From Chrysomallon squamiferum (Eukaryota > Animalia > Mollusca): a stretch of 64,000 bases of DNA. The notes under the pieces are model-generated. The model did no database searches, had not been told where the DNA came from, and saw nothing but the letters and a program-made list of their open reading frames with translations. Positions 1 to 55,000 of this stretch are shown here, piece by piece. Location: NCBI GenBank assembly GCA_012295275.1, contig CM022679.1, positions 17,608,001 through 17,672,000 on the forward strand, read 5' to 3'. Positions within the stretch are counted from its first letter, which is position 1, and every line of letters starts with the position of its first letter. The position numbers and the translations under genes are program-made.

Positions 1-64
1 TATGAACTTTTCTAGAGTTATATAAAACAATAAACGTCCTTCAAACAGGTTAATGAAGCATTAC

Positions 65-2270
65 TTGATTTTTTGAAAGTTGTCTTCGAATTTGGGGAAA
101 AAGACGTCAGCGGGAAAGTCTCCAAAAATTCTTGTTAAATAGATTCTGTTGCATCCATGGTGCTTCAAGGCAATCTGCACGTATTACATTTCATAGGTTA
201 GAAAATGTATTTGTGTATATTTTAAGACAGAGAAACTAATAAATATATTTGCAAATATTACAAATAAGGCAGGCAATATAAAGAATAGTACTTGATAAGA
301 TAATAATATCTGGAGAATGAAAATAACACATCTTTATTAATTACAAATACTGACAGCTCGAATGTCGCACTAAAGAGAATTTGTCTCTTGGAGAATGGAA
401 CGTTTCTAAATTAGATAAAAATATTGAAGATTTGAATACATTCTATTTCAAATAATAATAGCAATAACATTAGAAGCTTGCTTTAAATGGGATTATTTAT
501 ATGTGTGTGTGTGTGTTACTTCATAATTCTTGGCACCACCCATTATCCATATGTGTTCTATCTGTTCACGGACAGTCATCAGATACTCCATAGCATCATC
601 AAAAGTAGAGCATACTTTGTGTATTGTTGGATGGTGTCCATCCCTTGAAAACAAAATACAACATTAAAGTCAATGGTATTTATAGCAAGATATAATGAAA
701 TCTATGTTAGTACACGTTTTGTCAGTAATTATGTAAACAATACTTCACTCGGAAATGTTAAACAAAAATGGAAAAGAAAACAACAACAACAAAATAATAA
801 ATAAATAAATAAAACAAAATAATACCAAAAAGACAGCATTATCAGTTATGGCATTTTGCCAGTGTGTTATGTTTTTACTTTAGTTCATTTACAGTTTTTT
901 ATTTATTAATCATCAACAATGGGTATAATGAATTAAATGAAATTGGTTGTGAAAATTTAAAACAATAATCATGATTACTGTAAATTTTTGATACAAAAGT
1001 ATATAAATTTCTAAAATACTTTCCTTTATGATTATAAACATGTAGAATCCTTTCTAACTCCCTTTCCCTGTTATGTATAATATATACTGATATAGTTACA
1101 GCTTCAAATGTTTATCTCATTTATATTGAGACGGTCACAAATGAACATGTTAACTTCTGTTTTAACTATGGTTTAAAAGTGTATCAGTTATCTTTGAGTA
1201 TGTAAATGTTACTGATAGCTGCAGATAAAATATTACTATTTTTTGACACAGGTTATATACTTGATCGGCAAACCTCTCTGCCCACCAATTCACTCTTTGT
1301 ATGTAAATGCTTTCTTTCATAATGTACACACTTTATAGATGACCCCTGTTTACAGCGATGAGCGACTGATAATGCTGTCCTAAAAAATTATAGAGATTGT
1401 TTACAGAATTCAGTCACACACCACTAATTATAATCTTGACAAATTACATGCGCACACCTGCAAACAGACACACCTACCAATACACCATTATATGTTATTT
1501 GCCTGAATCCAGACTTATCACTGATCACATTAAACTGTGTATACGTACTGCAGCCTGGAACTAATAATGATGTTATGTAATCCTGGTGTTTGTCTCTCCT
1601 CCTCGTACCAATATTCCCATGTTCTTCTTCCCAGAATGAATGCTATAGACTTTCCTTCAAATAATTATGTAATCATGAAGTTATCATTAACAGTAATAAT
1701 AATATCAAAATATCCTTGCAATTAAAATCAGACTGGTGTATCAATTTTTGTATTAGTGTAAATACCCACTGAACTGTCTGGAAATCAAGTGAATAATATT
1801 TATTTATTTTTCTTCTTCTTATAACAAGAAGAAGATGAAGAAGAACAACAACAACAACACTAATATATATACATACACACACAAATACAAATGTGTATAT
1901 AAATATATCATTGTGTAATTTGTTATAGAATCGAGTGTACGCTATTTTACATGTAGTTAACAGAACACGTAGCTACATACTAAACACACACATATGCATA
2001 TTTATAAACACGACTATAAAAAATACTAATAACATTTTGGAATTTTTTAAAACAAGACGTTTTTAAAACAAACCTTTACCTAGAACCACATTTAAAATTT
2101 GTATAACTTATATTAACACTTACTTTGATTTCTTCTTGTCATGGTCAGTTTTTTATAATGATCATGGTCACCCCTGAAATTAACATGAAGAAATAGCCAA
2201 AATGTTTTCTATACTTTCAGTGCTTTTTGTTTTTTAAAGGCGATAAACATCATTATCTGTATTATTTTTC

Positions 2271-2339
<69 letters not shown>

Positions 2340-2535
2340 ACGTTTATCGTAAATTGGCAGTATAAAATGAACATCCATCTGAACCATCGGAGATCTGTTC
2401 TCATCACTGATTACCATAATATAACACTCACTTCAAATACGGCCAAGGAAAATAACCATTAAGCCCAATCCCTCGGTTAGAGTGACACATCGCCACACAA
2501 ACATCAAATCGTATATTTTTCTCCTCACCATCCAT
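65..2535 (-). CDS. DHFR: Divergent dihydrofolate reductase-like protein, exons 1-5 (last exon lies outside the window)
   Basis: Hand-spliced exons, all GT-AG: 2535-2432, 2173-2124, 1654-1549, 643-520, 174-65. Translation: MDGEEKNIRFDVCVAMCHSNRGIGLNGYFPWPYLK|GDHDHYKKLTMTRRNQR|KSIAFILGRRTWEYWYEEERQTPGLHNIIISSRLQ|DGHHPTIHKVCSTFDDAMEYLMTVREQIEHIWIMGGAKNYE|IALKHHGCNRIYLTRIFGDFPADVFFPKFEDNFQKI. It has the DHFR motifs GIGxNGxxPW, GRRTW, WIxGG, YLTRI and DxFFP. Intron phases and the 50-nt and 106-nt exons match vertebrate DHFR. The frame is open throughout. Family assignment is firm; orthology to canonical DHFR is doubtful. Confidence 0.93.
2274..2338. repeat. Compound (GT)n(GA)n microsatellite in DHFR-like intron 1
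   Basis: Directly visible dinucleotide run. Confidence 0.95.
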
Positions 2536-3513
2536 AATAACGCCAATCTGCTTTCAATCAAATTTTCCGTCACGTGTAATCAATATGCGGGTCAATGATA
2601 AAATTTGAAGACAATTATTTTTATATTAATGTAAAAGTTATTTCCCCTGGGATATCTGCCATGACAGAGAACTATGTCAACGAAATAAATGTCACATTTA
2701 ATAATTATAGATTATGGTTGATATCATTATTACTATTACTTTTTTTTTTTTTTAACTTACAAAGTAATTGTTTTATAACCTAATTACAAAAGTTGGTTAT
2801 TATAAATTCTTTAGTGTCAGCAAAATATTTATAAAATCTACTATGTGGACGGTTTCAGCATGTGAAATAACGAGACATTTTATATATTGTTTATTTATTT
2901 ATTTTTAAATTGTTAAATAGGCCTTTATTATTCCAGTTTAAATTTCTTTTTCTAAAGTGATATCACAAAAATATAGACTACACGCATTTCCTCATTTATA
3001 TTTTTTAAATTTATTTTATATTATTGCATATTTTTTATTTTCATCCATATTAGAAAGGGTTGGTGTGAAGAATTAAAAAAAATAAAAAATAAAAAATGAA
3101 TCTGTAAGTCCTTATCTATACAAAATGCGAACGAAACTTTCTGCTTAATGAGTCAGGTCACTCTGGCCCACTCAATTACAAAGTTTTAATTTAAAAATTC
3201 GTCTAAGCCGATTTTATTTACAATTTCAGTATCATTAACTAACTGTAAAGCAAGTCTCGGGCGGTTTCATGAAATGTATCGATCCACTATGCAATATTTT
3301 AAAACTTGATTGATCAAATGCGAAGGACAGATCTGCACAAGGACGAGAGCGATCGTAATTTTGTTTATGATATTTGTACCCACCATAACTGATATTTTGG
3401 CTTTTAGGAGTCTATTAATTTTGATAAATGAGATCTAATTTACTGTTGAAACATTAAACATAGAAATATGTCAGCATAAATAAATTCCCTTCTCGTACTC
3501 TCCCATCTACTGA

Positions 3514-7489: not shown

Positions 7490-9718
7490 ATGGCTACAGG
7501 AAAGCTGTTTAGAAACGTATTAGGAAAGAGCGTAACACCAATCAAAACTCCACGTAAGTAATAAACAAAAAAGTTATTTTATCTGTTCCTGAATTTATCT
7601 TTTACTCCATCATAACATTTGTTTATGAATTTTAACCCTTTTGGTTATTGTGAGTGCATCTTTACAGAAAATACACCTTCTCACTTGCTGTTGACTGTTA
7701 TTTGTTCGAAAATGGCAGAGAGTAGGCTTGGTATATCATCTCTATAATTTTAATGAATTTTATTTGAGCTAAATAGATAAATAAATAAATAAATAAATAA
7801 ATAGTAATAATAAACCAATAAATATAATTTTTTATTATCTAACGTTAATAGTTCTTTAATTCTGATTTAATATAGATATTATCTTTATCAAAGGCTCTAA
7901 AATACCTACCTGCCTGTTGGCATGTAATCATAAATACAGAAGTTTCTCGTATCTGTTTTGTTAACAGCTGTGACCTAACCCAGACCCAGTGACGCCTACA
8001 CAGCGAAAAATCCCATTGATTTTTAAATATCTGATACCAGTAGTAAATAAAATAAATGGTTTCAACTGTTAGTACTGCTTCTGCTCGACAATAAAGCTAC
8101 TAATGCTACAGTTAACTATTATCGACAGTCGAAATAATAAAAACATTACCAGTAAAAACAATAGTAGTAATAATAGTAGTTGTGATAGTAATAACGTCAT
8201 AATTTATTTTTCAGAACCGTCGGGGAATAAGGCAACAGCGGCAGCGGCTGTTGCCCACGACAGACCCTTAACCGTAAGTGAACCTTCCGGACCGAAGTTG
8301 ATAACGTCTGTACCTGGACCTAAAACTAAGCAACTCAAAGAACGTTTAAACGGCATTCAGGTACTTGTAATACTATATCGTATTCCTTGTGGACACGATA
8401 ATAGCTTGTTACAGCTGGTTGCCCACTCGGGACGTGTCAGGTTTTCTAAAGTTTATGTAAGTGCACTGAACTTATGCAATTTGAACCTAATTCAAGACAG
8501 CTGAATCAGTAACTGCTTACTTAAAAACAGGTATTGCACGACAAATTTTAGCCGATATAGTTCTGCCTTGCTTAATATAACCGGTTGATGTAGTCGTAAC
8601 TATACTGTTTTCCTCTCTAAAGGTAAATCATGTAAAATCACAGACAAGGCGTACAGGCGGTGTTATATCACCTCTAAGTTTTATTTATTGTTTCTACTAT
8701 GAGAAAAAACAACAACAAAAAACCCCAGCTATTTAAACTAGAAATTGTTATTCTCCTTCCTTTTTCGAAGTAATATATTTTACTAGGAATATCTTTTATT
8801 ACTGCAATTTCAGAATACAGAAGCTATCACGTTTTTTGTTGACTATGACGAAAGCCGAGGAAACTACGTCGTGGATGTCGATGGCAACATTCTGCTGGAT
8901 ATGTACAATCAAATAGCATCACTACCTCTAGGTGTGTTGTCTACTCGTCTTTTTTGTCTTTTTTTTATTTTTACACGTTAGTACTTTAATTGCTGTATGC
9001 AGTACTTTTGGTGCTGTTAACTGTTTAAAAGCCAAAGAACATAAATATAGTCGTTAAAAACGGCAGGTTTAAATAAAAATATCTGTCGACATTTTCACGT
9101 TTTATTTTCAGGGCTAGATTAAGGTAGTGTAAGGTCTGTAGCATATATTGCAAACTCTAAAATAAACTACTGAAGCATCCACAAGCGTTCTCATCATTAC
9201 CCATTCCCACAGCAATCTCTCGCACTACACCAGTTTTATATGACAATACAGACAAACATGTAACTCAGTAAACTTAAAGTTGATCGAAATTATTTATTTG
9301 TATCGTATTTATTAATGATTACATAATAGATATCCGTAGCACCTACACTGTGTAGCCAACAACGTTGCCAGATTGTAAGATGCCGATTTCACCAGACATT
9401 TTGCGAGTATTGAGTGTGAGGTCCGTTGCATTGGACTACCGTAATATATGGCTACTTTGGATACTAGCTTAATCCGGCTCTGACTATTTTGAAATAAATG
9501 AGTGATGTTAAAATTAAAATTTGTAATTGGTTCATTTTCATGACAGGCTACAGTCACCCTAGTCTGATCAAAGCCATGAATGATCCTAACAACATGGTAA
9601 GTAATAAAACATACAAAATAGACCAGCCTCTGTCATACAAGGTAAACACTGAAAACAGAAAATATTATTATGAAATTCTCATGTTACTATCGTTAATATT
9701 GAAAGTGAAAATAATTTA

Positions 9719-24733: not shown

Positions 24734-27473
24734 ATGTATGCATAATTATCTGCATTTGCATGTATTAATGTATATGTGTGCTTGCATGTACGTTTATATG
24801 TATTCTTGTATATTTAATCTTTGTATATGTGAATGTATGTGGATATATGCATAATAAATGTTTTCTTTCTGTTCAGGCTGCATTTATCAACCGTCCAGCT
24901 CTGAGCATGTTTCCACCAAAAGATTGGCCACAGAAACTGCAAAATGCATTACTTTCAGTGAGTTGTTTCTTTCTTCTTCATTTTTTTTTTTTTTTTTTTT
25001 TGTTCTTGTAGCCCTCTACTTAAAGTGTTAATTCAGCCAGAGTGAATATTTAATTAATGAAATTAGCATTATTAAGAGAATGAATAAATTAACATACCTC
25101 AATACATTTTAATATAAGCGATTGTTAAATATCATTCACAACCAGACAACTATCGTTATCATCTCTCGTACATAAAGTAATTTTTATCTTGCCACTGTCA
25201 CTGGGCCCAGCGCATAAGAGGTGTCAGCTTTCAAGTGCTAACGACCCAGTTAAAATACGGCTTGTTTCGTGTCTAGGGATTGCGCATTTGGTGGACCCGC
25301 TGACTGTGCAATTAAGAAACTGTGACGATTGATTATAATAGACATATATTTTTGTGTTTGTAACGTAAGTTTGAGTTAGAACCCATTTAAGTGCTGAGAG
25401 AATAGCTATTAGTTCCGTAGTAAAGACGGATAGGTTGTTGGTCAGTCTACCTCTATAGTTGAAGGGTGGGTAGGGTAGTTCCGGCCTGACATGAAAGGCC
25501 ATGCCGGTTCTTCCCGTGAGAGGGTCTTTGGAGCCGTCTGTGTATATATGGGTGAAGTCCGAGTAGTGGTCGCTTAATGCTGCTATAAAGATTACGTTTT
25601 TAAATGGGTCGTGTTCAGTTTTTGGTACTTCCTGTCTAAGCGTTAAAGGTATGTCTAGTTGTTTTATGGTCCATGGGGGTTCTAAGGGTGGAGGGCTGTT
25701 TTCGAGTTCTAGGTCCAGTAGATTTAGTCTGTTTGCTGTCCTGTGTGTGATGTTTAGTGATGTTTCTCTGTCGTTGATGTAAGGTAGGTTGTTTGGGATT
25801 ATTGTGTTTATAGGATGGGTGGGGATTAGGTTTTTGATTTTAAACCAGTGTTTGAGACACTGTTTGCTGCATCGGATTCTCAGCGGTAGGATGTTTAGTT
25901 CCACAAACAGACTGCCAGTCGGTGTGCCTGGGGATACCTTGGCTATAATTCTTAGCGCCTTGTTGTATATCGTGTCTAATCGATTAAGCGATGTCTTTGT
26001 TCTTTGTGGTCTCTGTCTTTTACTTAATTAAACACGTCGCAGTCTTCCCTGAAGTTAGCAGAGCGAAGCTGACAAAAATTTCTTTTGTCGCTCGCTAATG
26101 ACAATAGGTGATTTCAGTAAATGGATTACTGTTAACTATCAGAAGATATTTAATTAATACATATTGTTAGGAATATTTGTAGAAATAAATGGTTAACATA
26201 TTTACTTACTTTAATGATGCATACAGGTTAATTACGAGATGTTAAACTGTATTAAAGTAAGCTATTTAAGTAAATAGTAAATATGTTTCAGACGTTTTCA
26301 AAAACTGTACCTTAAAAGGATAACAGTATAAAATATTATAATAAGTAAAAAAATAGCTACCAGCGAATTCTACAATTAGGTATAAACAAAATTGCAATCC
26401 TTGGCTTAGTAAATAAATTAGAACCAATTTGTTATGTTAAAGAAACACAGGAAACAGTACATCTAAATATCGCTGAGAAAACTTTCCACAGCTTGAACGA
26501 GTCCCTGTTAGTGTTTGATTAAGGGCCCTACTACGTAAGGTAAAAACACAGTTTACCGTCATAAAACGGAGAATACCACATAGTTCAGGTAAAAGTTTAA
26601 TGGGCACCGAGTTGGATAAATAACAGTTTTAGTTATGATAGATTACGCCTTTAAAAAGAGGTTCATAATTATACCAGTTTGTTCTCTTAACTGACAACTG
26701 TTTAAAAATAACCAAATTTAAAAATGAATAAATATATGTAACACAGTATATACAGGATATAATTAACCACAAGTTTATTTTTTTATTTTTCCAGGTTGCG
26801 CCACCAGGCCTTAATCAAGTACAGACAATGTCCTGTGGAGCATGCTCCATTGAACATGCACAGAAAGCTTGTTTCATAAAGTATAATGTAAGTATTATTC
26901 AGTTTAATAACTTAAACTTAAAGTGTGCCTACGTGATACAAAAAATAATCTAAATTATTTTGAATATTTCCAAGTTATGTTTTGTTCGTCCAGTTTTATC
27001 TATTAATATAGAACAACGACAAAGGGGTACAGTTAAAGATAGCGTGCGCCGCCATTTTTTTGTAGGTATGACGTCATCGTCAACAGGAGAGATAATTTGA
27101 GGTTTCCTCTGTGTACCAAATATCACTGTTATGAATTTGTCTCTTTTTTTTTTTTTGTCTTTTATTACTAATAAGAATGTTTGACTTATAACAAATAACT
27201 ATGACTAGTAAGTGTACTAAAGAATTTAAAGTATTAAGTTGTGTTACTTAATTTACCGTAGCAGCATCAGTACTGTCAAAAACAGTAAAACATATTTAAA
27301 AAAAAAATTGTATTATTATTTTAGTATTATTAATTGAAAAATTGATAGAAAATTAATAAAAATAATAATAATAAAAACAAACAGGAAAAGATAATAGTTG
27401 TGCAGTTGTGCAAACATGTACACGTATATCTTACATCCATTTTATTTTCATAACTAGATTTCACGTATTTAAA

Positions 27474-27706: not shown

Positions 27707-30700
27707 ATTTTCCACACATTAATGGAAGCTTTCAAGCAATGGATCAACATGGGTGAAATAACCGCCCTTTAATATTAAGCTTCGTCATTCTTTTAAATCA
27801 CGACGATTATTATTATTATTTTAATTTCACTTGGAAGTTGCCGTACATTTTGCCGCCATTTTATCCAGCGATCTTGTGTTCACGTTTTGCGTTTGGCAAG
27901 CGAACTTTGATTATTTCCGCCAGATTATATTTATTGATAAATTCAGGGTACATAATAAACATACAGTGGTACCTTGACTTACGACTTTAATTCATTCCGT
28001 GACCGAGCTCGTGTATCAAATCAATTTTCCCAACTGAAATTAATTGAAATATCATTAATCCGTTCCAGCCTCCCGAAAAAAACACCCCATTTTTGTTTGT
28101 TTTTGAACGTATTTTTAAATAAGAAAAATGTATTTATAAATGACAAATACTGTATAAAAACAAAATAAAAGAGAATGTAAAGAAATAAATTGGTTTTGTA
28201 AAGTGTATTTATCTTGGAAATCAGACATTATTTTAACGCCTTTGGCTGGAGTTACACCCTTCATCTTTAGTATGGTACATATCGTAGAAGTACTACGCTC
28301 GTACTGCCTAGCCAAGTCGACTACATGCACACGTCGCTCATATTTTTCTTTAAATTCAAGCTTTAATGCAATGGACATCATCCGCTTCTTCTTCTTGTGA
28401 TCACTGACCTTTGCACTCACTTTCTTAGGATCCATGGCCAGAAAAAAGAAATTTGGTAAAATACTGCACGAAACGCAAGCACAACACAACAGAGAGGTGA
28501 GGTAACCACGTGACGTAACCAGTGAGACGCAGGATGCTGACCGGATGTTATGTGGTTCGTTGCGCCAACTCGCGGCGCGTATCTGAAGCTCGTTCATAAT
28601 TCGGATTTTGGCTCGCAACTCAAAGCAAAAAATCGAACGGGCTCGTAACTCGAAAAATTCGAAAAATTTCGATGTACCACTGTACGTTATTGCTATTCAA
28701 CGTCTGCTACACATGGTTTTATAAACGCAAGGGACTAAATAAATAAATCAGAAAAGAAGAATAACATTTGAAAAAAAGCTGCTGCCTATTTTTACAATTT
28801 CAATCACATAGAATCCCATATCAGTAAGAAATGGTCTTGTAAATTTGTAAATGAAATGATAAGTGATTGAGGATAATTACGTGTCCAGTAAAAATTACAG
28901 ATTAAAATAGGGTCCAAGACTCAATGTACTGACAGTTAAATAATTTTACCAATCTTTGTAAAATATTTAGTTAAAGATGCTGTTTTATTAGATACAGAAT
29001 ACTGATGTTTACATTTAAATGTTTAATTTATTATTCATGATAACTGCTTGATACACTTATGTATGCTTTTAATGGTAAATGGACAATTCCCCACTCCACA
29101 CATACACATACACACACAATCACATGTACATGCTCAGACATAAACACATTCAAACACACGTTGTTGTTGTTGATGTTGCTGCTGTTATTACTATTACTAC
29201 TACTACCACTATTATTATTATCATTACAGGATATTACTGTGTTGATTTTTGCCATGGACACTTACAATAAAAAAATAAGAGTGGGGAATTGTGCAAGTGG
29301 GAAATTGTCCTGGAACCTTTTTAACATATATATGTATGTTTTGACACTGATATATATTTTAATACAATGAGATAAGTTTTAACATGGTGATATGTTTTAA
29401 ACACAATTTAATTTTAACACAGTGGTGTATGTGTTAACACTTTACTGTATGTTTTAGCCCAGTGATGTATGTTTTAATGCACTGAGGTGTTTTAACACAT
29501 TGATAGTCATTTTATCATACTCTTGTGTTGTTAGGCTCATGTAAGAGAAGGCAGACCATACACAGAAGAGGAGATGCAAAGTGCACTGATGAATAAGAAA
29601 CCTGGCTGTCCTCCCCACACTGTCCTGTCTTTCAAAAATGCCTTTCATGGTAGAACAATGGGTAGGTTTTTGCTACATACTTCAATTTACACACAAACTT
29701 TAGTAACATTCAAAATGTTTTAGAAAATCAGTTTAACAGCACAGAGGTTTTTTCTAAATATTTAAACAGTTTTATTTAAATTGCTCGTTTAATAAATAAT
29801 TAACTAATTAAGCAAATGCCAGCTGATTATTTAAATTAAAATGATTCAGCATGTATGGGTGTTTGCTATTGTTCCACTTGTATAAGTATGAAAACATTAA
29901 TATCTATTGTGTGACAAATATGATAGTAATTTCTAATTAACATTTATAAGGTGCACTAGCACTGACTCATACCAAGTCAATTCACAAGCTGGATTTGCCC
30001 CAGCCAGAATGGCCCATAGCGACATTTCCACAGTTAAAGTATCCACTGGATGAGTTCACTCGTGAAAACATGGAGGAAGAAGACAGGTGTTTAGCTGAGG
30101 TAAAAATAATGTTTAATAAATAATTCTGAATATTTTTTTCCAATCAGAAATGTTTTTCATTGACATATATATATAAATAAATAGGTAAGTAACTAAGCAA
30201 GTGGATGACAATCAGACAGGCAGACAGATAAATAAATAAAATAAAATTTATAAAAATAAAGTAAAATAAAATTTATAAACTAAAAGTCAAATAAAAATTT
30301 AATTATGACATAAATAGATGAATAACTTAAAAGAGACAAGACATTTCTGAAGGGAAGTTACTGTGTTTTTTGAAACAACTTCAACCAGTAGATCATGTTC
30401 TTTCTAATCATTTTTACAAAATTTCTACAGTCTTAAAGTTGTTTTATTAATGAAAACACAAATGATCAGTAGAGGTACATCAGTCAAAAATAATCCAGTC
30501 ATTCTCTGTTTCAGGGGTTAAATATTCTGTTTTAACATCCAAACTGAAGGTGATCTGTAGGTATAGCAATTTTGAAAAACAGTTTCTCAGACTAAAGTTA
30601 AATTCAAAATACACTTTAAAATAAAAAGTTCATTGTAATTTAATTACTTATCTACTGTGTTTAATAACTCCCAGATATCTGGATGAGGCAGTGTTGTAGT

Positions 30701-37426: not shown

Positions 37427-43081
<5,655 letters not shown>

Positions 43082-45404: not shown

Positions 45405-46776
45405 ATGGGTTTACATATTGCTCGATGTCATTGTGGAACTATGAATGGTCAAGAAGAAAAGCCAGGCATCAGTAACAACAGTGGAATTTATCATGAACGA
45501 CAACAGAAGGAGCTGTGTGCAATGCATGCATTGAACAATCTCTTTCAAGTGCAAGGGGCTTTCACAAAGAAGGATCTAGATGAACTATGCAACAAGTGAG
45601 ACTTTTTAATAATAAATCTTTAAGGTATTATCCAATTTTGTGCAGTTGAAGGTTCTTTTCTTTATAATTTTCTTTATTTTTTTATTTAAAATATATGTAG
45701 ATATGTAAGTGTTTATATTAAATATTACATATTACACACACACACATATTCTTTAATATATACTGTTTTGTACTTTTACTTCTTCACCATCAGACATCTA
45801 ATTTTTAATTTAATTTTAGCCAAAAAATCAGTTATAAACAATGCCTCTAAAAACAATATCCAGAGGTGGTAATTAACATTATATATGATGAGTGTTTATT
45901 TTAAGTTTCTTTAGATTCATATTAATAAACAAAAATTAGCATTCGCAACAGATTATCACCTGAAGCATTCTTCAACCCCCATCGCAGCATCCTTGGTCTG
46001 GGCAACTATGATGTTAATGTAATTATGGCAGCTTTACAGAAGAAGGGATATGATACTATCTGGTTTGACAAGAGAAAGTAAGAAAAAATATATTTGTTTT
46101 AGCCACTAATGACATTTAATGAAGTTTAATGTTGTAAATCTTAATACACAAAATGTATGAGTTTTAAGGTTGTAGAAGGACATTTTTTTTATTTTCAAGT
46201 GCTCATGTAGTACATGAGACAATATTGATATAAATATACATTACTAATATAATGTTTTTAATGTAGATATACTATGGAAACAAAATAAGAGAAAACTAAA
46301 AATTTCAGTTGTAATGTACAGAAATATTTTCACTTTGAAGGACATTAAACTTTATTTACAATTTGTATTACAGGAGTATAGATTGTCTTCAATTTGAAAA
46401 TATCATGGGCTTTATACTGAACATCCCAACTGAATATAAATGGGGCTTTGTGAGGCTCCCCATTAATCGTAAACACTGGATCTCTATAAAATGTATTAAT
46501 AATCAGTATGTTAATCTTGACTCTAAACTTGACTGTCCAGAAGTGATTGGTGACTCTGCAGCACTCAAGGAATTTCTCCATACACAGCTAATGGACAGTG
46601 ACAAGGAACTGCTGTTGGTGGTGACACAGGAAGTGGGTGAGACAGGAGCTTGGAGAAAGGAATGTTGTATGTTCCCACCGTTAGCAACAGCTGAGGCTAT
46701 ATGTGATTCTGAGGCTGGCATTTCCAATGGATCCATAAAACAGAAATCTCAGGAACATTTTCCAAGCTCAATTTGA
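45405..46776 (+). CDS. JOSD1: Josephin-domain deubiquitinase (JOSD1/2 co-orthologue), ~239 aa
   Basis: 3 coding exons: 45405-45595, 45952-46077, 46374-46776 (720 nt; alternative start at 45441). [21 protein letters not shown] (catalytic Cys), [26 protein letters not shown] (His), NLDSKL (Asp). No UIM or polyQ, so not ataxin-3. Confidence 0.95.
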
Positions 46777-51305: not shown

Positions 51306-52045
51306 CGGTGATTTTCAACCAGTGTGCTGCAAGATCTTCCTAAGTGTGATACAAAATTTTGTAGAAAAAGAAAATCCAAATCTCATTCATACCCATTGCT
51401 TTCTAAATAGAGAAGTTCTTGTTTCAAAAATATTGCAGGAAGAATTAAAGGTTGTGTTAGATCAAGTTACTGGAATGGTCAATTATATAAAAAGTAGGCG
51501 ATTGAAGTCATGATTATTTGAACAACTGTGCAAAGAGATGGACTCTCAGCATGTTAAGTTAATAGTGCACACCTTGCTGGCTGTTGAAAGGCAAAGTACT
51601 AAATCGTGTTCACGAACTGCACAAGGAATTACTATAATTTTTTTTCTCCAGGAAAAGCAGGAAAAATTCAGTGAATACCTTAGTTGAGAATTTTGGATGT
51701 CTAAAATGGAATACCTAACAGAAATATTTAGTGAACTAAATAAAACAAACAGTAATATGCAAGGTAAAAACGAAAATATTCTCGCTTCAACAGACAAGTT
51801 AGTTGCCCTCAAAAAGAAAAATGTGATTTGGAAAAAAAGAGCAATTGCTGGCAATCCTGATATGTTCCCTTTACTGCGTTCTACCTGTGTTAGAGAAATG
51901 ATCCCTGTTGTGTTTATTCATCTGACAGCCCTGGATGAAAGCATCTTATTCATGTGTATTTTTCATATATATTTAACTAGGCGTGCTGCTATGTTTTCAT
52001 GTGTTCCAAGGTGTGCTTTTGGCAAAAAAAGGTTGAGAACCACTG
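51306..52045 (+). mobile_element. Internally deleted hAT (Buster/Charlie-like) transposon
   Basis: TIRs cggtgattttcaacc / ggttgagaaccactg. Perfect 8-bp TSD ttacaact on both sides. Transposase remnants HTHCFLNREVLVSK (CxxH-like region), MVNYIKSRRLKS and YLTEIFSELNKTNSNMQG, with stops and frameshifts. Confidence 0.94.
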
Positions 52046-55000
52046 TTACAACTGAATATATAAAATATTTTTAAATATTTTTATTTCATTTGTATTACAT
52101 AAGTCAGTGTAGCAAGAAATAGATTTTTAAAAATCTAGTCATTCTTTAGAATATGTTGCACAATTAAAATTTGTTCTTACAAGAAAAGTCATGTACATAC
52201 ATTTAAGGAACATAAACTGAAGTAACAGAAAATAATTTGTTCTTGAAATGAAATAGGTAAGTGTATCACATATTTTTATTTAACTGCAAACAATTAAAAT
52301 GTCTGCTCCAAATCACACTGCTATTTAATGATTTCTAAGTCTATAACATTAATAATTCTAAATAAAACGAATAAAACTAATACATTTTTATTGTTCATTA
52401 ACATCAAATAATTATGAGTAGATATAGTCCAGTAATATGGTCCTGTTATTAATGATAACCACATTATATATTTATTATAATTTGATGAATCTAATTCAAG
52501 AATATTTTCTTCATTCTTCTTAAAACATATAGTGAAAATCTTTCAAAATGATAATGCTTATACTAAAAATATTCAGGTTTGACATTACAATTTTATTCAT
52601 TTATTTATTTTTATTTTATTATTATTACTTTTTTCAATATACTTATTTTTCTTTAGTTAAAGTGAAAATCAAAATGTAACACATACTGATGATTATAAAA
52701 TTATATAATTTAGACAAACATGTCATGATTTCAGAATCCATTTATACTTTACAATTAAAACAAAAAGAGAAAATCATGAAATTCCCCATACAAATATACT
52801 GATTATTTATAACATATACAAATACATATGTTAAATTACATAAAACAAATATTGCACAATAGGAATATTTTCAACTTTCAATGATTTACAAAATGTGCAT
52901 CAGAACAATAAAAACTTTCTTGTAATAGAAATTGCAGTTATTTCAAAAACATAACAATTATTAAACAATTACTGATGAAAAAAAAAAATAATAATAATAA
53001 CTAATAAATAAAGAAAACAATATTAAAAAAAATTCCTGCAATTTACAATAGTTAAAATTATGCAAACATTTGTGCAAAAATTAACAACCAGTATGTTTCC
53101 ATGTTAATATAAAAGTAAATGATAATTATGTTTTTGTTAACATTTTGGTCAAATTGTAAAAGCATTTTACAGGCACAAAGTAAGAAAAATGAATCCCATT
53201 AATCATTTGCATGTTTATATCAAAACAATCATTATACAGACAATTGTATTAAACATACACTAACATTTAACATCATTCAGTCTGTCATTACTATAGAGGA
53301 AATTGAAAAAAAAAAAATCCCTATGCCTGTCAGTAATTTTACTATAATGAAATAGAAACAGATAAATAAAATTAATGTACAAAAGCTTGTTATTTTCCTG
53401 ACAAAATAATCAGTTTGAGGTCCTTTTTAATGTTCACATAATTAACAGAGACATGAATAATGTCTACCAAATAATCAAGAGACTACATCTGTAGAAATAC
53501 TTATATCCAATTTGTTAGTCAAGTGTAAATGATAAAATGGTTAGTCAACTTAGCAAACCACATAATGAAAATATGAAAATCATGATTTAAAGACCCACTG
53601 TTCCGAGATGAAACTAGCAGAAAATATAATAGGCACTGTGTTTAATTCATGTATGACATTAAAAGTTAAACAAAATACGTAGCTGAGATGCATCTTGGAA
53701 CAAGCAACATCAAAAAACCTACTACAAACAAATACTTATGATAATAAAAATAGGATAACAATAAATAAAAATGTAAGTACATGAAATTTAACTAAACTGT
53801 ATTTACTGATTTAAATATTTTCATTCTTGTTTCATTTTGTTCAAAGATAAAACATATTCACAAATTTACTCACAACCAAAGAGCAGATTCATCTAAACAG
53901 CCAACAACAAATCAGAACTGAATATAAAATAATTTAAATATGTCTCCTTCAGACTTGCTGCATTGCTCGTAAAGTATTCTGTAAGTAATAAAATAGCACA
54001 AATTTTCTGAAATATCAATTGTAATTATGTATAAATATGGTTAATTATGTAAATTATTATGACAAATTATTTTCTGGCAATAAAATGGCACTGAAATACA
54101 TTTATGATATGTAGCAAAGTTGGTTTTATAAACAAAAAAATATCATCTTTCTGGAAAATAATATAACTGACAATGTAAATAACTTCATTATTACAGGATA
54201 TTTTGTTAACCTTTGGTTGAGCATCCAAAAAGCTAATTATTTTTATTTTTTAACCTTCCAAACTAGTCATTTATTTCCTTATGTGTACCAGTCTTTTATA
54301 ATAATAAAATGACAAAACAGACATTTTCTGTTACAATTACTTCATGTTGTATAGATATGTTAGAATACCTTTTGATAAACTTGTTTATTACATTCTCATT
54401 TTATCAGGGGCTTTTTTTTTTTCTTGTTTTGTTTCCCAAATATGTTTGTTTGTTGTTTGTAAATTTTAATGAAACGACACCATAACAAACAATGTCAGGT
54501 TCCAGGCATCACCAAATTGTTATTATTTTGTCACGGTCCATTATTAATACTAAGATGGTTCTATAAACAAATAATACATGTATCAAGGCCACCAACAGTA
54601 GGTACACTTTAAAATGTATTCAAATTAGTGAATATATGTTTCATTCCCTTTTATTTGTTTTTTTTAGTGCTGATTTAAAAAAGTAATATTTTCAATTTTC
54701 TTAAACAGTGATAAAAACATTCATTATAAATGAAAATGATCTGAGAATAAAAATGTAATTGGTTTATTTATATATCTAAAACAAATTATTTTACAAAAGA
54801 ATGACAAAATATTTCTGGAATGATTGTAAGTAAATATTTCTTATTACTGACAAAAACCCTTGGATTAAATATATTTTTTTAAATATAATATTTCTTTTCA
54901 AAAACAGAAACTTAAATAACAATTTATTTTATGTTCACATCAATGTTTTAGTTCCTATGTGTATTAGCAATGGGCTTAAATAAAAATAATTACTACTGGG

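What the first reader, a model, noticed from the sequence alone, without database searches (positions are those of the whole stretch)
65..2535. Intact DHFR-fold enzyme with the folate pABA-glutamate pocket systematically rebuilt
Seen: five in-frame exons with DHFR intron positions, invisible in the ORF track. Aligned by eye to human DHFR, it retains the NADPH-binding elements (A9, G15-I16-G17, G20, G53-R-R-T56, S76, G116-G117, Y121) and the pterin-ring catalytic set (W24, acidic residue 30 as Asp, T136). Residues lining the substrate and tail site are replaced: L22F, F31H, F34Y, S59Y, I60W, P61Y, N64E, P66Q, L67T and R70L. Established: R70 is the near-invariant partner of the folate glutamate carboxylate, and L22/F31 changes confer antifolate resistance. 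Inference: bulky aromatics fill the pABA site and the charge is lost or reversed, so this is probably a neofunctionalised NADPH-dependent C=N reductase for unconjugated pterins or another small imine, not the housekeeping DHFR.
Basis: partly seen in the sequence, partly recalled or inferred. Interest (0 to 1): 0.82.

Follow-up and report, generated by a model that had tools for sequence, protein, structure and literature searches.

The report
Ancient second DHFR lacking folate grip
This is an intact, spliced snail gene from an old second branch of dihydrofolate reductase, fused behind the normal enzyme in bivalves, annelids, ribbon worms and bryozoans, which keeps its NADPH and pterin-ring residues but has lost the arginine that grips folate's tail, so it likely reduces a small non-folate pterin instead.

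Summary
Observation confirmed and extended. Five GT-AG exons on the minus strand give 164 open codons, and RNA contigs (one study) splice them and run on into a sixth exon outside the window. The listed residue changes are real. The gene is not a one-off. Its closest relative is Gigantopelta aegis 'DHFR-like' (75% identical), then abalone and Littorina proteins. All group with a second domain ('B') fused behind a canonical DHFR in bivalves, annelids, a nemertean and a bryozoan. Of 23 other B domains, all keep Asp/Glu30, Trp24, Arg54 and Ser76, and none keeps Arg70. Across the family the folate-tail site is mostly relaxed, not rebuilt to one design; the aromatic Tyr59-Trp60-Tyr61 patch is local to this snail lineage, and the charge is neutralised, not reversed. 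Best reading, untested: an NADPH reductase for an unconjugated pterin such as 7,8-dihydrobiopterin (about 45%). Rivals are a non-catalytic partner, a low-affinity folate reductase, or another imine substrate. I found no paper on the family in a library that lacks most subscription journals. I could not check for a canonical DHFR in this genome. The scan earlier noted an Arg70-less DHFR in another, probably arthropod, genome; kinship was not tested.

The parts
2536..2580 (-). 5' untranslated part of exon 1, with an in-frame TGA at 2556-2554, seven codons before the ATG
   Evidence: Spliced RNA contigs begin at 2579, 2580 and 2562 and show no loose end on this side; stop position
2432..2535 (-). 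Coding exon 1 (104 nt): strand A, A9, G15-I16-G17, G20, F22, P23-W24-P25; ends in K28, phase 2
2124..2173 (-). Exon 2 (50 nt): helix with D30, H31, H33, Y34, K35, T38; phase 1
1549..1654 (-). Exon 3 (106 nt): L52, G53-R54-R55-T56-W57, Y59-W60-Y61, E64, Q66-T67, L70 in place of Arg70, S76; phase 2
520..643 (-). Exon 4 (124 nt): W113, M115, G116-G117, Y121; three residues shorter than in Gigantopelta; phase 0
65..174 (-). Exon 5 (110 nt): T136 and the DVFFP-type motif; phase 2
1..64 (-). Start of intron 5; the last exon lies beyond the window edge
   Evidence: GT donor at 64; RNA contigs in 3 runs have 255 loose letters beyond 65, whose first 30 read (by hand) as sense codons in frame

Best explanation
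The gene encodes the free-standing snail form of an old second DHFR ('B') that is fused behind canonical DHFR in bivalves, annelids, a nemertean and a bryozoan, and it likely uses NADPH to reduce a pterin that lacks folate's p-aminobenzoyl-glutamate tail, most plausibly 7,8-dihydrobiopterin. Shown: the spliced intact reading frame, the family, the fusion in relatives, the kept NADPH and pterin-ring residues, and the loss of Arg70 in every member seen. Inferred: one tandem duplication in an early lophotrochozoan, with fission in gastropods. The canonical copy would keep folate duty, while B would bind the 2-amino-4-oxo pterin face through Asp30, Thr136 and Trp24 and take the hydride as DHFR does. 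The family-wide polar changes (Tyr34, Glu64, often Lys52 and Thr60) would suit a short polar side chain. This snail's Leu52/Trp60/Tyr61 would close the vacated tail groove, or mark a further shift of substrate. The identity of the substrate is a guess from the residue pattern.
For: Expression and splicing. Ortholog in Gigantopelta at 74.5% with the same F22, D30, H31, Y34, L52, W60, Y61, E64, T67, L70. All 23 B rows, the window protein included, form one side of a 59-row tree (SH-aLRT 99, quick search). With the pocket columns removed, the tree holding B together is 10 log-likelihood units better than the free tree found (p-AU 0.67). A profile built only from 13 fused B domains scores the window protein 172.7 bits, against 133.6 for a profile of 21 canonical domains. 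In 23 other B domains: D/E30 23, W24 23, R54 23, S76 23, T56 22, G116-G117 and T136 22 of the 22 that reach them, R70 0, acidic 64 in 21, Y/F/H31 in 22. Mean top-residue share in 17 B rows: NADPH set 0.82, pterin-ring set 0.73, tail set 0.44, other positions 0.51; in 15 canonical rows 0.94, 0.82, 0.77, 0.56 (residue sets assigned from recalled structures). The Gigantopelta ortholog folds as a true DHFR (pLDDT 93.7, pTM 0.88; TM 0.83-0.86 to human DHFR). The Arg70-equivalent is mutation-intolerant for folate function in E. coli and Pneumocystis scans (passages of PMC7377907 and PMC13241008). DHFR is the known salvage reductase of 7,8-dihydrobiopterin (passages of PMC11664145 and PMC4423366). 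A duplicated bacterial DHFR changed its pterin substrate (DmrA; PMC6193120).
Against: No activity was measured and no ligand was docked. With pocket columns removed, the free tree split B: the Watersipora domain fell away and two unnamed canonical-type sequences fell inside, and a Watersipora-specific duplication is not rejected (p-AU 0.53). Some NADPH-side residues drift in B: S59 is mostly lost, K55 varies, G20 is kept in 12 of 23, which also fits a weaker or dead enzyme. A relaxed tail site is expected for a non-catalytic domain too. The window protein departs from the family at 52 and 60, so its substrate may differ from that of the fused domains. K28 and K35 remain and could still hold a folate tail. 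Recalled, not checked: a human Arg70Lys enzyme stays active while losing methotrexate binding. The higher pocket identity to Gigantopelta (19 of 21 against 101 of 138) is not significant (p = 0.11). No gastropod canonical DHFR was retrieved by my searches. The 23 rows are not independent (four scallops, near-identical pairs). RNA support comes from one study.
Confidence: 0.45

Rival explanations
1. B is a non-catalytic or barely catalytic partner that binds NADPH and a pterin and regulates, stabilises or buffers the canonical enzyme, which explains why the two are one chain in most lineages.
For: Fusion behind canonical DHFR in 13 full-length and 4 partial proteins from four phyla, with short linkers. 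B diverges faster than A in the same 14 proteins (mean pairwise identity 0.39 against 0.50). Drift at S59, K55 and G20.
Against: The catalytic acid, W24, T136, Y/F121 and the Gly-Gly motif are kept in all members that reach them. Gastropods keep B as a separate gene, and abalones appear to have two distinct B types. B-only and A-only records exist in Mytilus and Mizuhopecten.
Confidence: 0.2
2. B is still a folate reductase, but one with low affinity or a changed preference (for example antifolate-tolerant, or holding the tail through Lys28, Lys35 or Lys52).
For: The whole catalytic set is kept. K28, K35 and R65 remain in the window protein and K52 in 17 of 23 relatives. F22 is the change in the methotrexate-resistant human variant 1DLR. 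Databases name these proteins DHFR or DHFR-like.
Against: R70, I60, P61, P66 and M52 are invariant in 21 canonical animal domains and lost together in B. The window protein has Leu at both 52 and 70. F22 occurs in only 4 of 23 relatives, and a canonical domain is present in the same chain in the fused forms.
Confidence: 0.17
3. B, or at least its aromatic-rich form in this snail lineage, reduces a non-pterin imine or iminium, as the bacterial DHFR-fold protein SacH does.
For: SacH shows that the fold can reduce bulky iminium compounds with NADPH, using tyrosines to position the substrate (PMC10031226, section 2). The window protein has gained H31, Y59, W60, Y61.
Against: SacH is a distant relative (Z 14.8, 11% identity, against Z 24.3 for nematode DHFR) with an enlarged pocket. 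B keeps the exact pterin-face residues and loop lengths of animal DHFR.
Confidence: 0.12
4. This is the animal's only DHFR, or a duplicate in decay.
For: No canonical DHFR lies in the 64-kb window, and none from a gastropod was retrieved. No genome could be searched. The last exon was seen only as 30 letters.
Against: Spliced transcripts, a 75% identical full-length ortholog and members in four phyla argue against decay. Other molluscs have a canonical domain: fused in bivalves, alone in the chiton record XP_064596477. My searches were built to favour B-type sequences, so missing a gastropod canonical copy is weak evidence.
Confidence: 0.06

Closest known systems
Canonical animal dihydrofolate reductase (EC 1.5.1.3, Pfam PF00186; human 1DHF/1DRF, W. 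bancrofti 8E4F, S. mansoni 3VCO)
   Same: Fold (ortholog model: TM 0.83-0.86 to human, Z 24.3, rmsd 1.9 A over 177 residues to 8E4F), intron positions, NADPH motifs, W24, acid 30, T136, Y121.
   Different: No Arg70 and no RPL motif; I60, P61, P66, L67 and M52 replaced; about 29% identity to a mammalian DHFR (45 of 157); belongs to a separate branch.
Database 'DHFR-like' proteins of gastropods: Gigantopelta XP_041356335, Haliotis XP_046543781, XP_046351922, XP_067653695, Littorina XP_070205414
   Same: Stand-alone single domain, same branch, no Arg70; 75%, 50%, 50%, 42% and 44% identity.
   Different: Automatically named only; I found no functional study. Haliotis members keep Lys/Gln52 and Thr/Ser60, whereas this snail, Gigantopelta and Littorina have Leu/Met52 and Trp60.
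C-terminal domain of two-domain DHFRs (Mytilus CAC5415032, Argopecten XP_069101861, Pecten XP_033725588, Capitella ELU06433, Paralvinella KAK2164111, Lamellibrachia KAI0215959, Tubulanus XP_074661162, Watersipora XP_067938869)
   Same: Same branch and signature (acid 30, aromatic 31, Tyr/Phe34, acidic 64, Trp113, no Arg70).
   Different: Fused behind a canonical DHFR. The window gene has its own start, an upstream in-frame stop and no canonical exons in the window.
DmrA, dihydromethanopterin reductase of Methylobacterium
   Same: A duplicated DHFR that still uses NADPH but prefers another pterin (PMC6193120, passages and Discussion part 1). It is the closest functional analogy.
   Different: Bacterial and, by inference, independently derived; its sequence was not compared here; its substrate has a long non-glutamate tail.
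RibD_C-type DHFR-like proteins (SacH 7XH4, Leptospira DHFR-like 8JSV, RibD reductase domains)
   Same: DHFR fold and NAD(P)H use; SacH reduces a non-folate iminium.
   Different: Far more distant (Z 13-15, 11-17% identity). The B family carries PF00186 and descends from animal DHFR.
Human DHFR2 (DHFRL1) retrogene (recalled, no call)
   Same: A second animal DHFR gene.
   Different: As I recall, a recent intronless primate copy that keeps Arg70. B is intron-bearing, ancient and has lost the tail site.

Membership tests
Canonical DHFR (EC 1.5.1.3) | DHFR fold | tested here: met
   Tested on the 75% identical Gigantopelta ortholog, not on the window protein itself: pLDDT 93.7, Foldseek TM 0.83-0.86 to human DHFR, Z 24.3
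Canonical DHFR (EC 1.5.1.3) | NADPH-binding residues (A9, G15-I16-G17, G53-R54-x-T56, S76, G116-G117, Y121) | tested here: met
   S59 is replaced by Tyr
Canonical DHFR (EC 1.5.1.3) | Pterin-ring catalytic set (W24, acid 30, T136) | tested here: met
   W24, D30, T136 present
Canonical DHFR (EC 1.5.1.3) | Folate-tail site: Arg70 and the S-I-P...R-P-L motif | tested here: not met
   L70, Y59-W60-Y61, R65-Q66-T67; R70 in 146 of 150 other domains and 21 of 21 canonical animal rows
Canonical DHFR (EC 1.5.1.3) | Reduces dihydrofolate with NADPH | not testable with these tools
   Needs an assay
Lophotrochozoan DHFR B subfamily (defined here) | Groups with B domains rather than canonical domains | tested here: met
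   SH-aLRT 99 in a quick tree; profile scores 172.7 against 133.6; weaker without pocket columns
Lophotrochozoan DHFR B subfamily (defined here) | Signature: acid 30, aromatic/His31, Tyr34, acidic 64, Met10, Trp113, no Arg70 | tested here: met
   the common Lys52 and Thr60 are not shared
Two-domain A-B DHFR | Canonical domain spliced in frame upstream of B | tested here: not met
   No canonical exons in the window by tblastn of 150 proteins or by profile search of 3517 six-frame stretches; spliced contigs from 3 runs pass an in-frame stop upstream of the ATG. A rare fused isoform from outside the window is not excluded
RibD_C-type DHFR-like reductases (PF01872; SacH, RibD) | Closer to RibD_C than to DHFR_1 in sequence and structure | tested here: not met
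   Relatives hit PF00186 only; Z 13-15 to RibD_C-type chains against 20-24 to DHFRs
DmrA dihydromethanopterin reductases | Sequence clade and loop insertion described for DmrA | not tested
   No DmrA sequence was fetched; treated as an analogy only
Pseudogene | Broken frame, bad splice sites or no transcript | tested here: not met
   the last exon was seen only in part; dN/dS not computed (no DNA of relatives)

The most novel reading that the evidence does not exclude
Molluscs, annelids, nemerteans and bryozoans have carried, since before these phyla split, a dedicated second DHFR-fold enzyme that ignores folate and recycles an unconjugated pterin such as dihydrobiopterin, usually as half of a two-headed folate/pterin reductase and as a free enzyme in snails. 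It would be an animal division of labour in pterin metabolism with no vertebrate counterpart.
Probability: 0.4. Interest if true: 0.8.

Novelty: new variant of a known kind. Interest (0 to 1): 0.62.

Why it matters
Animal DHFR is usually treated as one housekeeping domain that does both folate reduction and biopterin salvage. Here a large animal clade keeps two anciently diverged domains, often in one chain, and the second has lost the folate-tail site while holding on to cofactor and pterin residues. That gives a natural, directly assayable test of how the fold separates folate from pterin specificity. It also warns that 'DHFR-like' and 'uncharacterized' 360-380-residue annotations in molluscs and worms hide a distinct protein, and it bears on how antifolates and biopterin-dependent pathways (amine neurotransmitters, nitric oxide) behave in these animals.

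Tried and rejected
Single exons as queries found nothing in the 5.8-billion-protein set (weak searches) and only weak Atlas hits. The window's own protein did not turn up in any search. The Atlas search with the Gigantopelta ortholog returned only generic DHFR clusters. The window's genome is not held, so a canonical DHFR, synteny and dN/dS could not be checked. An upstream canonical domain in the window was sought and not found. Two in-frame AG dinucleotides at 2551 and 2548 could act as an acceptor, but the tract before them is purine-rich and the contigs read through them. The model of the Mytilus two-domain protein has well-folded domains (pLDDT 88.9) but pTM 0.59 from a 16-sequence alignment, which gives no verdict on how the domains pack; its listed PDB matches each cover one domain. 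The complex prediction for the two Mytilus domains was not folded by the tool and gives no evidence either way. The careful tree search did not finish, so the quick tree is quoted; clade tests for Tubulanus and Paralvinella did not finish. A metagenome scan with the B alignment could not run. Rows left out of counts and trees: partial or duplicate isoforms P0004, P0008, P0051 domain 2, P0085, and in some runs P0007 domain 2, P0018, P0151, P0160, P0163, P0164, P0168, P0171 (listed). Literature searches for the family found nothing relevant in the listings: (one search was loose: none of its 20 listed papers mentions DHFR). Searches found no usable paper on Arg70. The library lacks most subscription journals, and I read no supplements, where gene-family tables could mention these proteins. 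Rejected: 'aromatic filling' as the defining feature of the family, and 'charge reversed'.

Full report
1. The observation. The window is AT-rich animal DNA (GC 24-37% in 2-kb bins). Five minus-strand exons at 2535-2432, 2173-2124, 1654-1549, 643-520 and 174-65 have GT..AG ends and join into 164 codons without a stop. Single exons hit solved DHFRs weakly but consistently. Public RNA contigs from four runs of one study show the first three joints, and one contig each in X2 and X3 carries all five exons and continues 255 letters past the window's exon 5. The first 30 of those letters read by hand as sense codons in frame and resemble the start of the Gigantopelta last exon. Introns 1-4 sit at mammalian residues 28, 45, 80 and 122, the human positions as I recall them. 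Arg70 is present in 146 of 150 other DHFR domains. One correction: Lys28, Lys35 and Arg65 remain, and the tail-site charge is 0 rather than negative.

2. What it is. Single-exon searches failed, so I aligned four exons on a scaffold DHFR and searched 1.84 billion representatives. The eight best hits were 282-379-residue proteins with two DHFR domains: six from annelids, a bryozoan and bivalves and two unnamed. A second search with the divergent domains added Mytilus, Argopecten, Pecten, Capitella, the nemertean Tubulanus, and single-domain proteins from Gigantopelta and Haliotis; Littorina and Haliotis asinina came. In every two-domain protein the first domain (A) is canonical and the second (B) lacks Arg70. 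The fusion is unlikely to be only a gene-model artefact: complete 368-388-residue frames lie on unnamed contigs of 1.35-1.54 kb, which I take to be transcript assemblies. A-only and B-only records also exist for Mytilus and Mizuhopecten. The window protein is closest to Gigantopelta aegis XP_041356335 (74.5%), then Haliotis (50%) and Littorina (44%), so the animal is probably a gastropod near Gigantopelta (inference).

3. One family. In a 59-row quick tree, all 23 B rows including the window protein form one side (SH-aLRT 99). Because shared pocket changes could drive that, I removed the pocket columns. The free search then split off the Watersipora domain and let two canonical-type rows in, but the tree with B held together had a higher likelihood (by 10 units, p-AU 0.67). 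A Mytilus-specific duplication was rejected (p 0.005) and a Watersipora-specific one was not (p 0.53). A profile from 13 fused B domains, with no gastropod in it, prefers the window protein over a canonical profile by 39 bits; of 221 domains scored, the 27 that prefer it are all B domains. One old duplication is the simplest reading, with moderate support.

4. Free-standing here. No canonical exons lie in the 64-kb window. Spliced contigs from three runs start at 2562-2580 and pass an in-frame TGA at 2556-2554 with no loose end. The next gene upstream is a GABA transaminase on the other strand. All five named gastropod records are single-domain. Whether this genome has a canonical DHFR elsewhere could not be tested, and my B-biased searches returned none from a gastropod.

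5. The pocket across the family. Among 23 other B domains (not independent), acid 30, Trp24, Arg54 and Ser76 are kept in all 23; Gly116-Gly117, Thr136 and Trp113 in all 22 that reach them; Arg70 in none. Position 31 is Tyr, Phe or His in 22, position 34 Tyr in 17, position 64 acidic in 21, and position 52 Lys in 17. In a thinned set (17 B, 15 canonical), the NADPH and pterin-ring positions of B stay well above background (0.82 and 0.73 against 0.51), while the tail positions fall below it (0.44; canonical 0.77) (sets assigned from recalled structures). So the family has mainly released the tail site and fixed a few polar residues. The window's Tyr59 is unique among those rows, Trp60 is shared with 2 of 16 and Tyr61 with 1 of 16. 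Against full enzyme function: Ser59, Lys55 and Gly20 drift in B.

6. Structure. The Gigantopelta ortholog models confidently (pLDDT 93.7, pTM 0.88) and matches animal DHFRs best, well ahead of RibD_C-type proteins such as SacH and the Leptospira DHFR-like enzyme (Z 14-15). The window protein itself was not folded, and no coordinates were available for docking.

7. How it most likely works. Established: the acid at 30 with Thr136 and Trp24 holds the pterin face, and Arg70 holds the glutamate (recalled). Arg70 moves with the substrate tail (passage of PMC3210774) and its equivalents are mutation-intolerant (passages of PMC7377907 and PMC13241008). DHFR also salvages 7,8-dihydrobiopterin (passages of PMC11664145 and PMC4423366); the latter suggests that the C. 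elegans DHFR may not do so, so invertebrate DHFRs may differ in this. A duplicated DHFR has changed pterin substrate before (DmrA; passages and Discussion part 1 of PMC6193120), and a distant DHFR-fold protein reduces an iminium (abstract and section 2 part 1 of PMC10031226). Inference: keeping cofactor and pterin-face residues across four phyla while releasing the tail site best fits a reductase for a tail-less pterin (0.45). Rivals: non-catalytic partner (0.2), altered folate reductase (0.17), other imine (0.12), sole or decaying DHFR (0.06). Recalled and unchecked, and against my reading: a human Arg70Lys enzyme remains active.

8. Novelty. The proteins are in public databases under automatic names. 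I saw no paper on two-domain animal DHFRs or on this branch in the listings; the library lacks most subscription journals and I read no supplements. Verdict: a real, expressed member of an apparently undescribed ancient DHFR subfamily; a new variant of a known kind; interest 0.62, held back by the lack of any biochemical evidence.

Noticed in passing
window 8814-8930 (+) and neighbouring exons from about 8216: An exon of a 4-aminobutyrate aminotransferase gene (E 1.6e-12 to 1OHV); it lies head to head with the DHFR-like gene, about 5.6 kb away.
   Followed up: partly
window 37430-37861 (-) and 46339-46773 (+): Exons of a GTP-binding protein 1 relative (E 4e-23) and of a Josephin-domain protein (E 2.5e-9), also on opposite strands.
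   Followed up: partly
B-domain alignment, mammalian position 25: B domains carry the extra proline of the vertebrate-type PWP loop (21 of 23), while 17 of the 19 canonical rows that cover the site, including nearly all partner A domains, lack it. This may affect active-site loop motion.
   Followed up: no
P0026 against P0170 and P0171: Abalones seem to have two different B-type proteins (H. asinina XP_067653695 is not sister to the H. rubra/H. rufescens pair), which suggests a further duplication.
   Followed up: no
P0206, P0216, P0218, P0222, P0223, P0224: Mytilus and Mizuhopecten have A-only, B-only and fused records, so the bivalve locus may make both separate and fused products.
   Followed up: partly
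P0042: An unnamed 816-residue protein with a degenerate DHFR domain, a second near-canonical one and a phosphorylase-superfamily domain; apparently an unrelated tandem arrangement.
   Followed up: no
window 25227-26027 (-), 28118-28696 (-), 51688-52071 (+): Long open stretches that look like transposon remnants by eye; the first has a weak RNase H hit (E 0.013).
   Followed up: no
window 1541: One A>G difference in an RNA contig, inside intron 3, at depth 5; probably an allele or an error.
   Followed up: no
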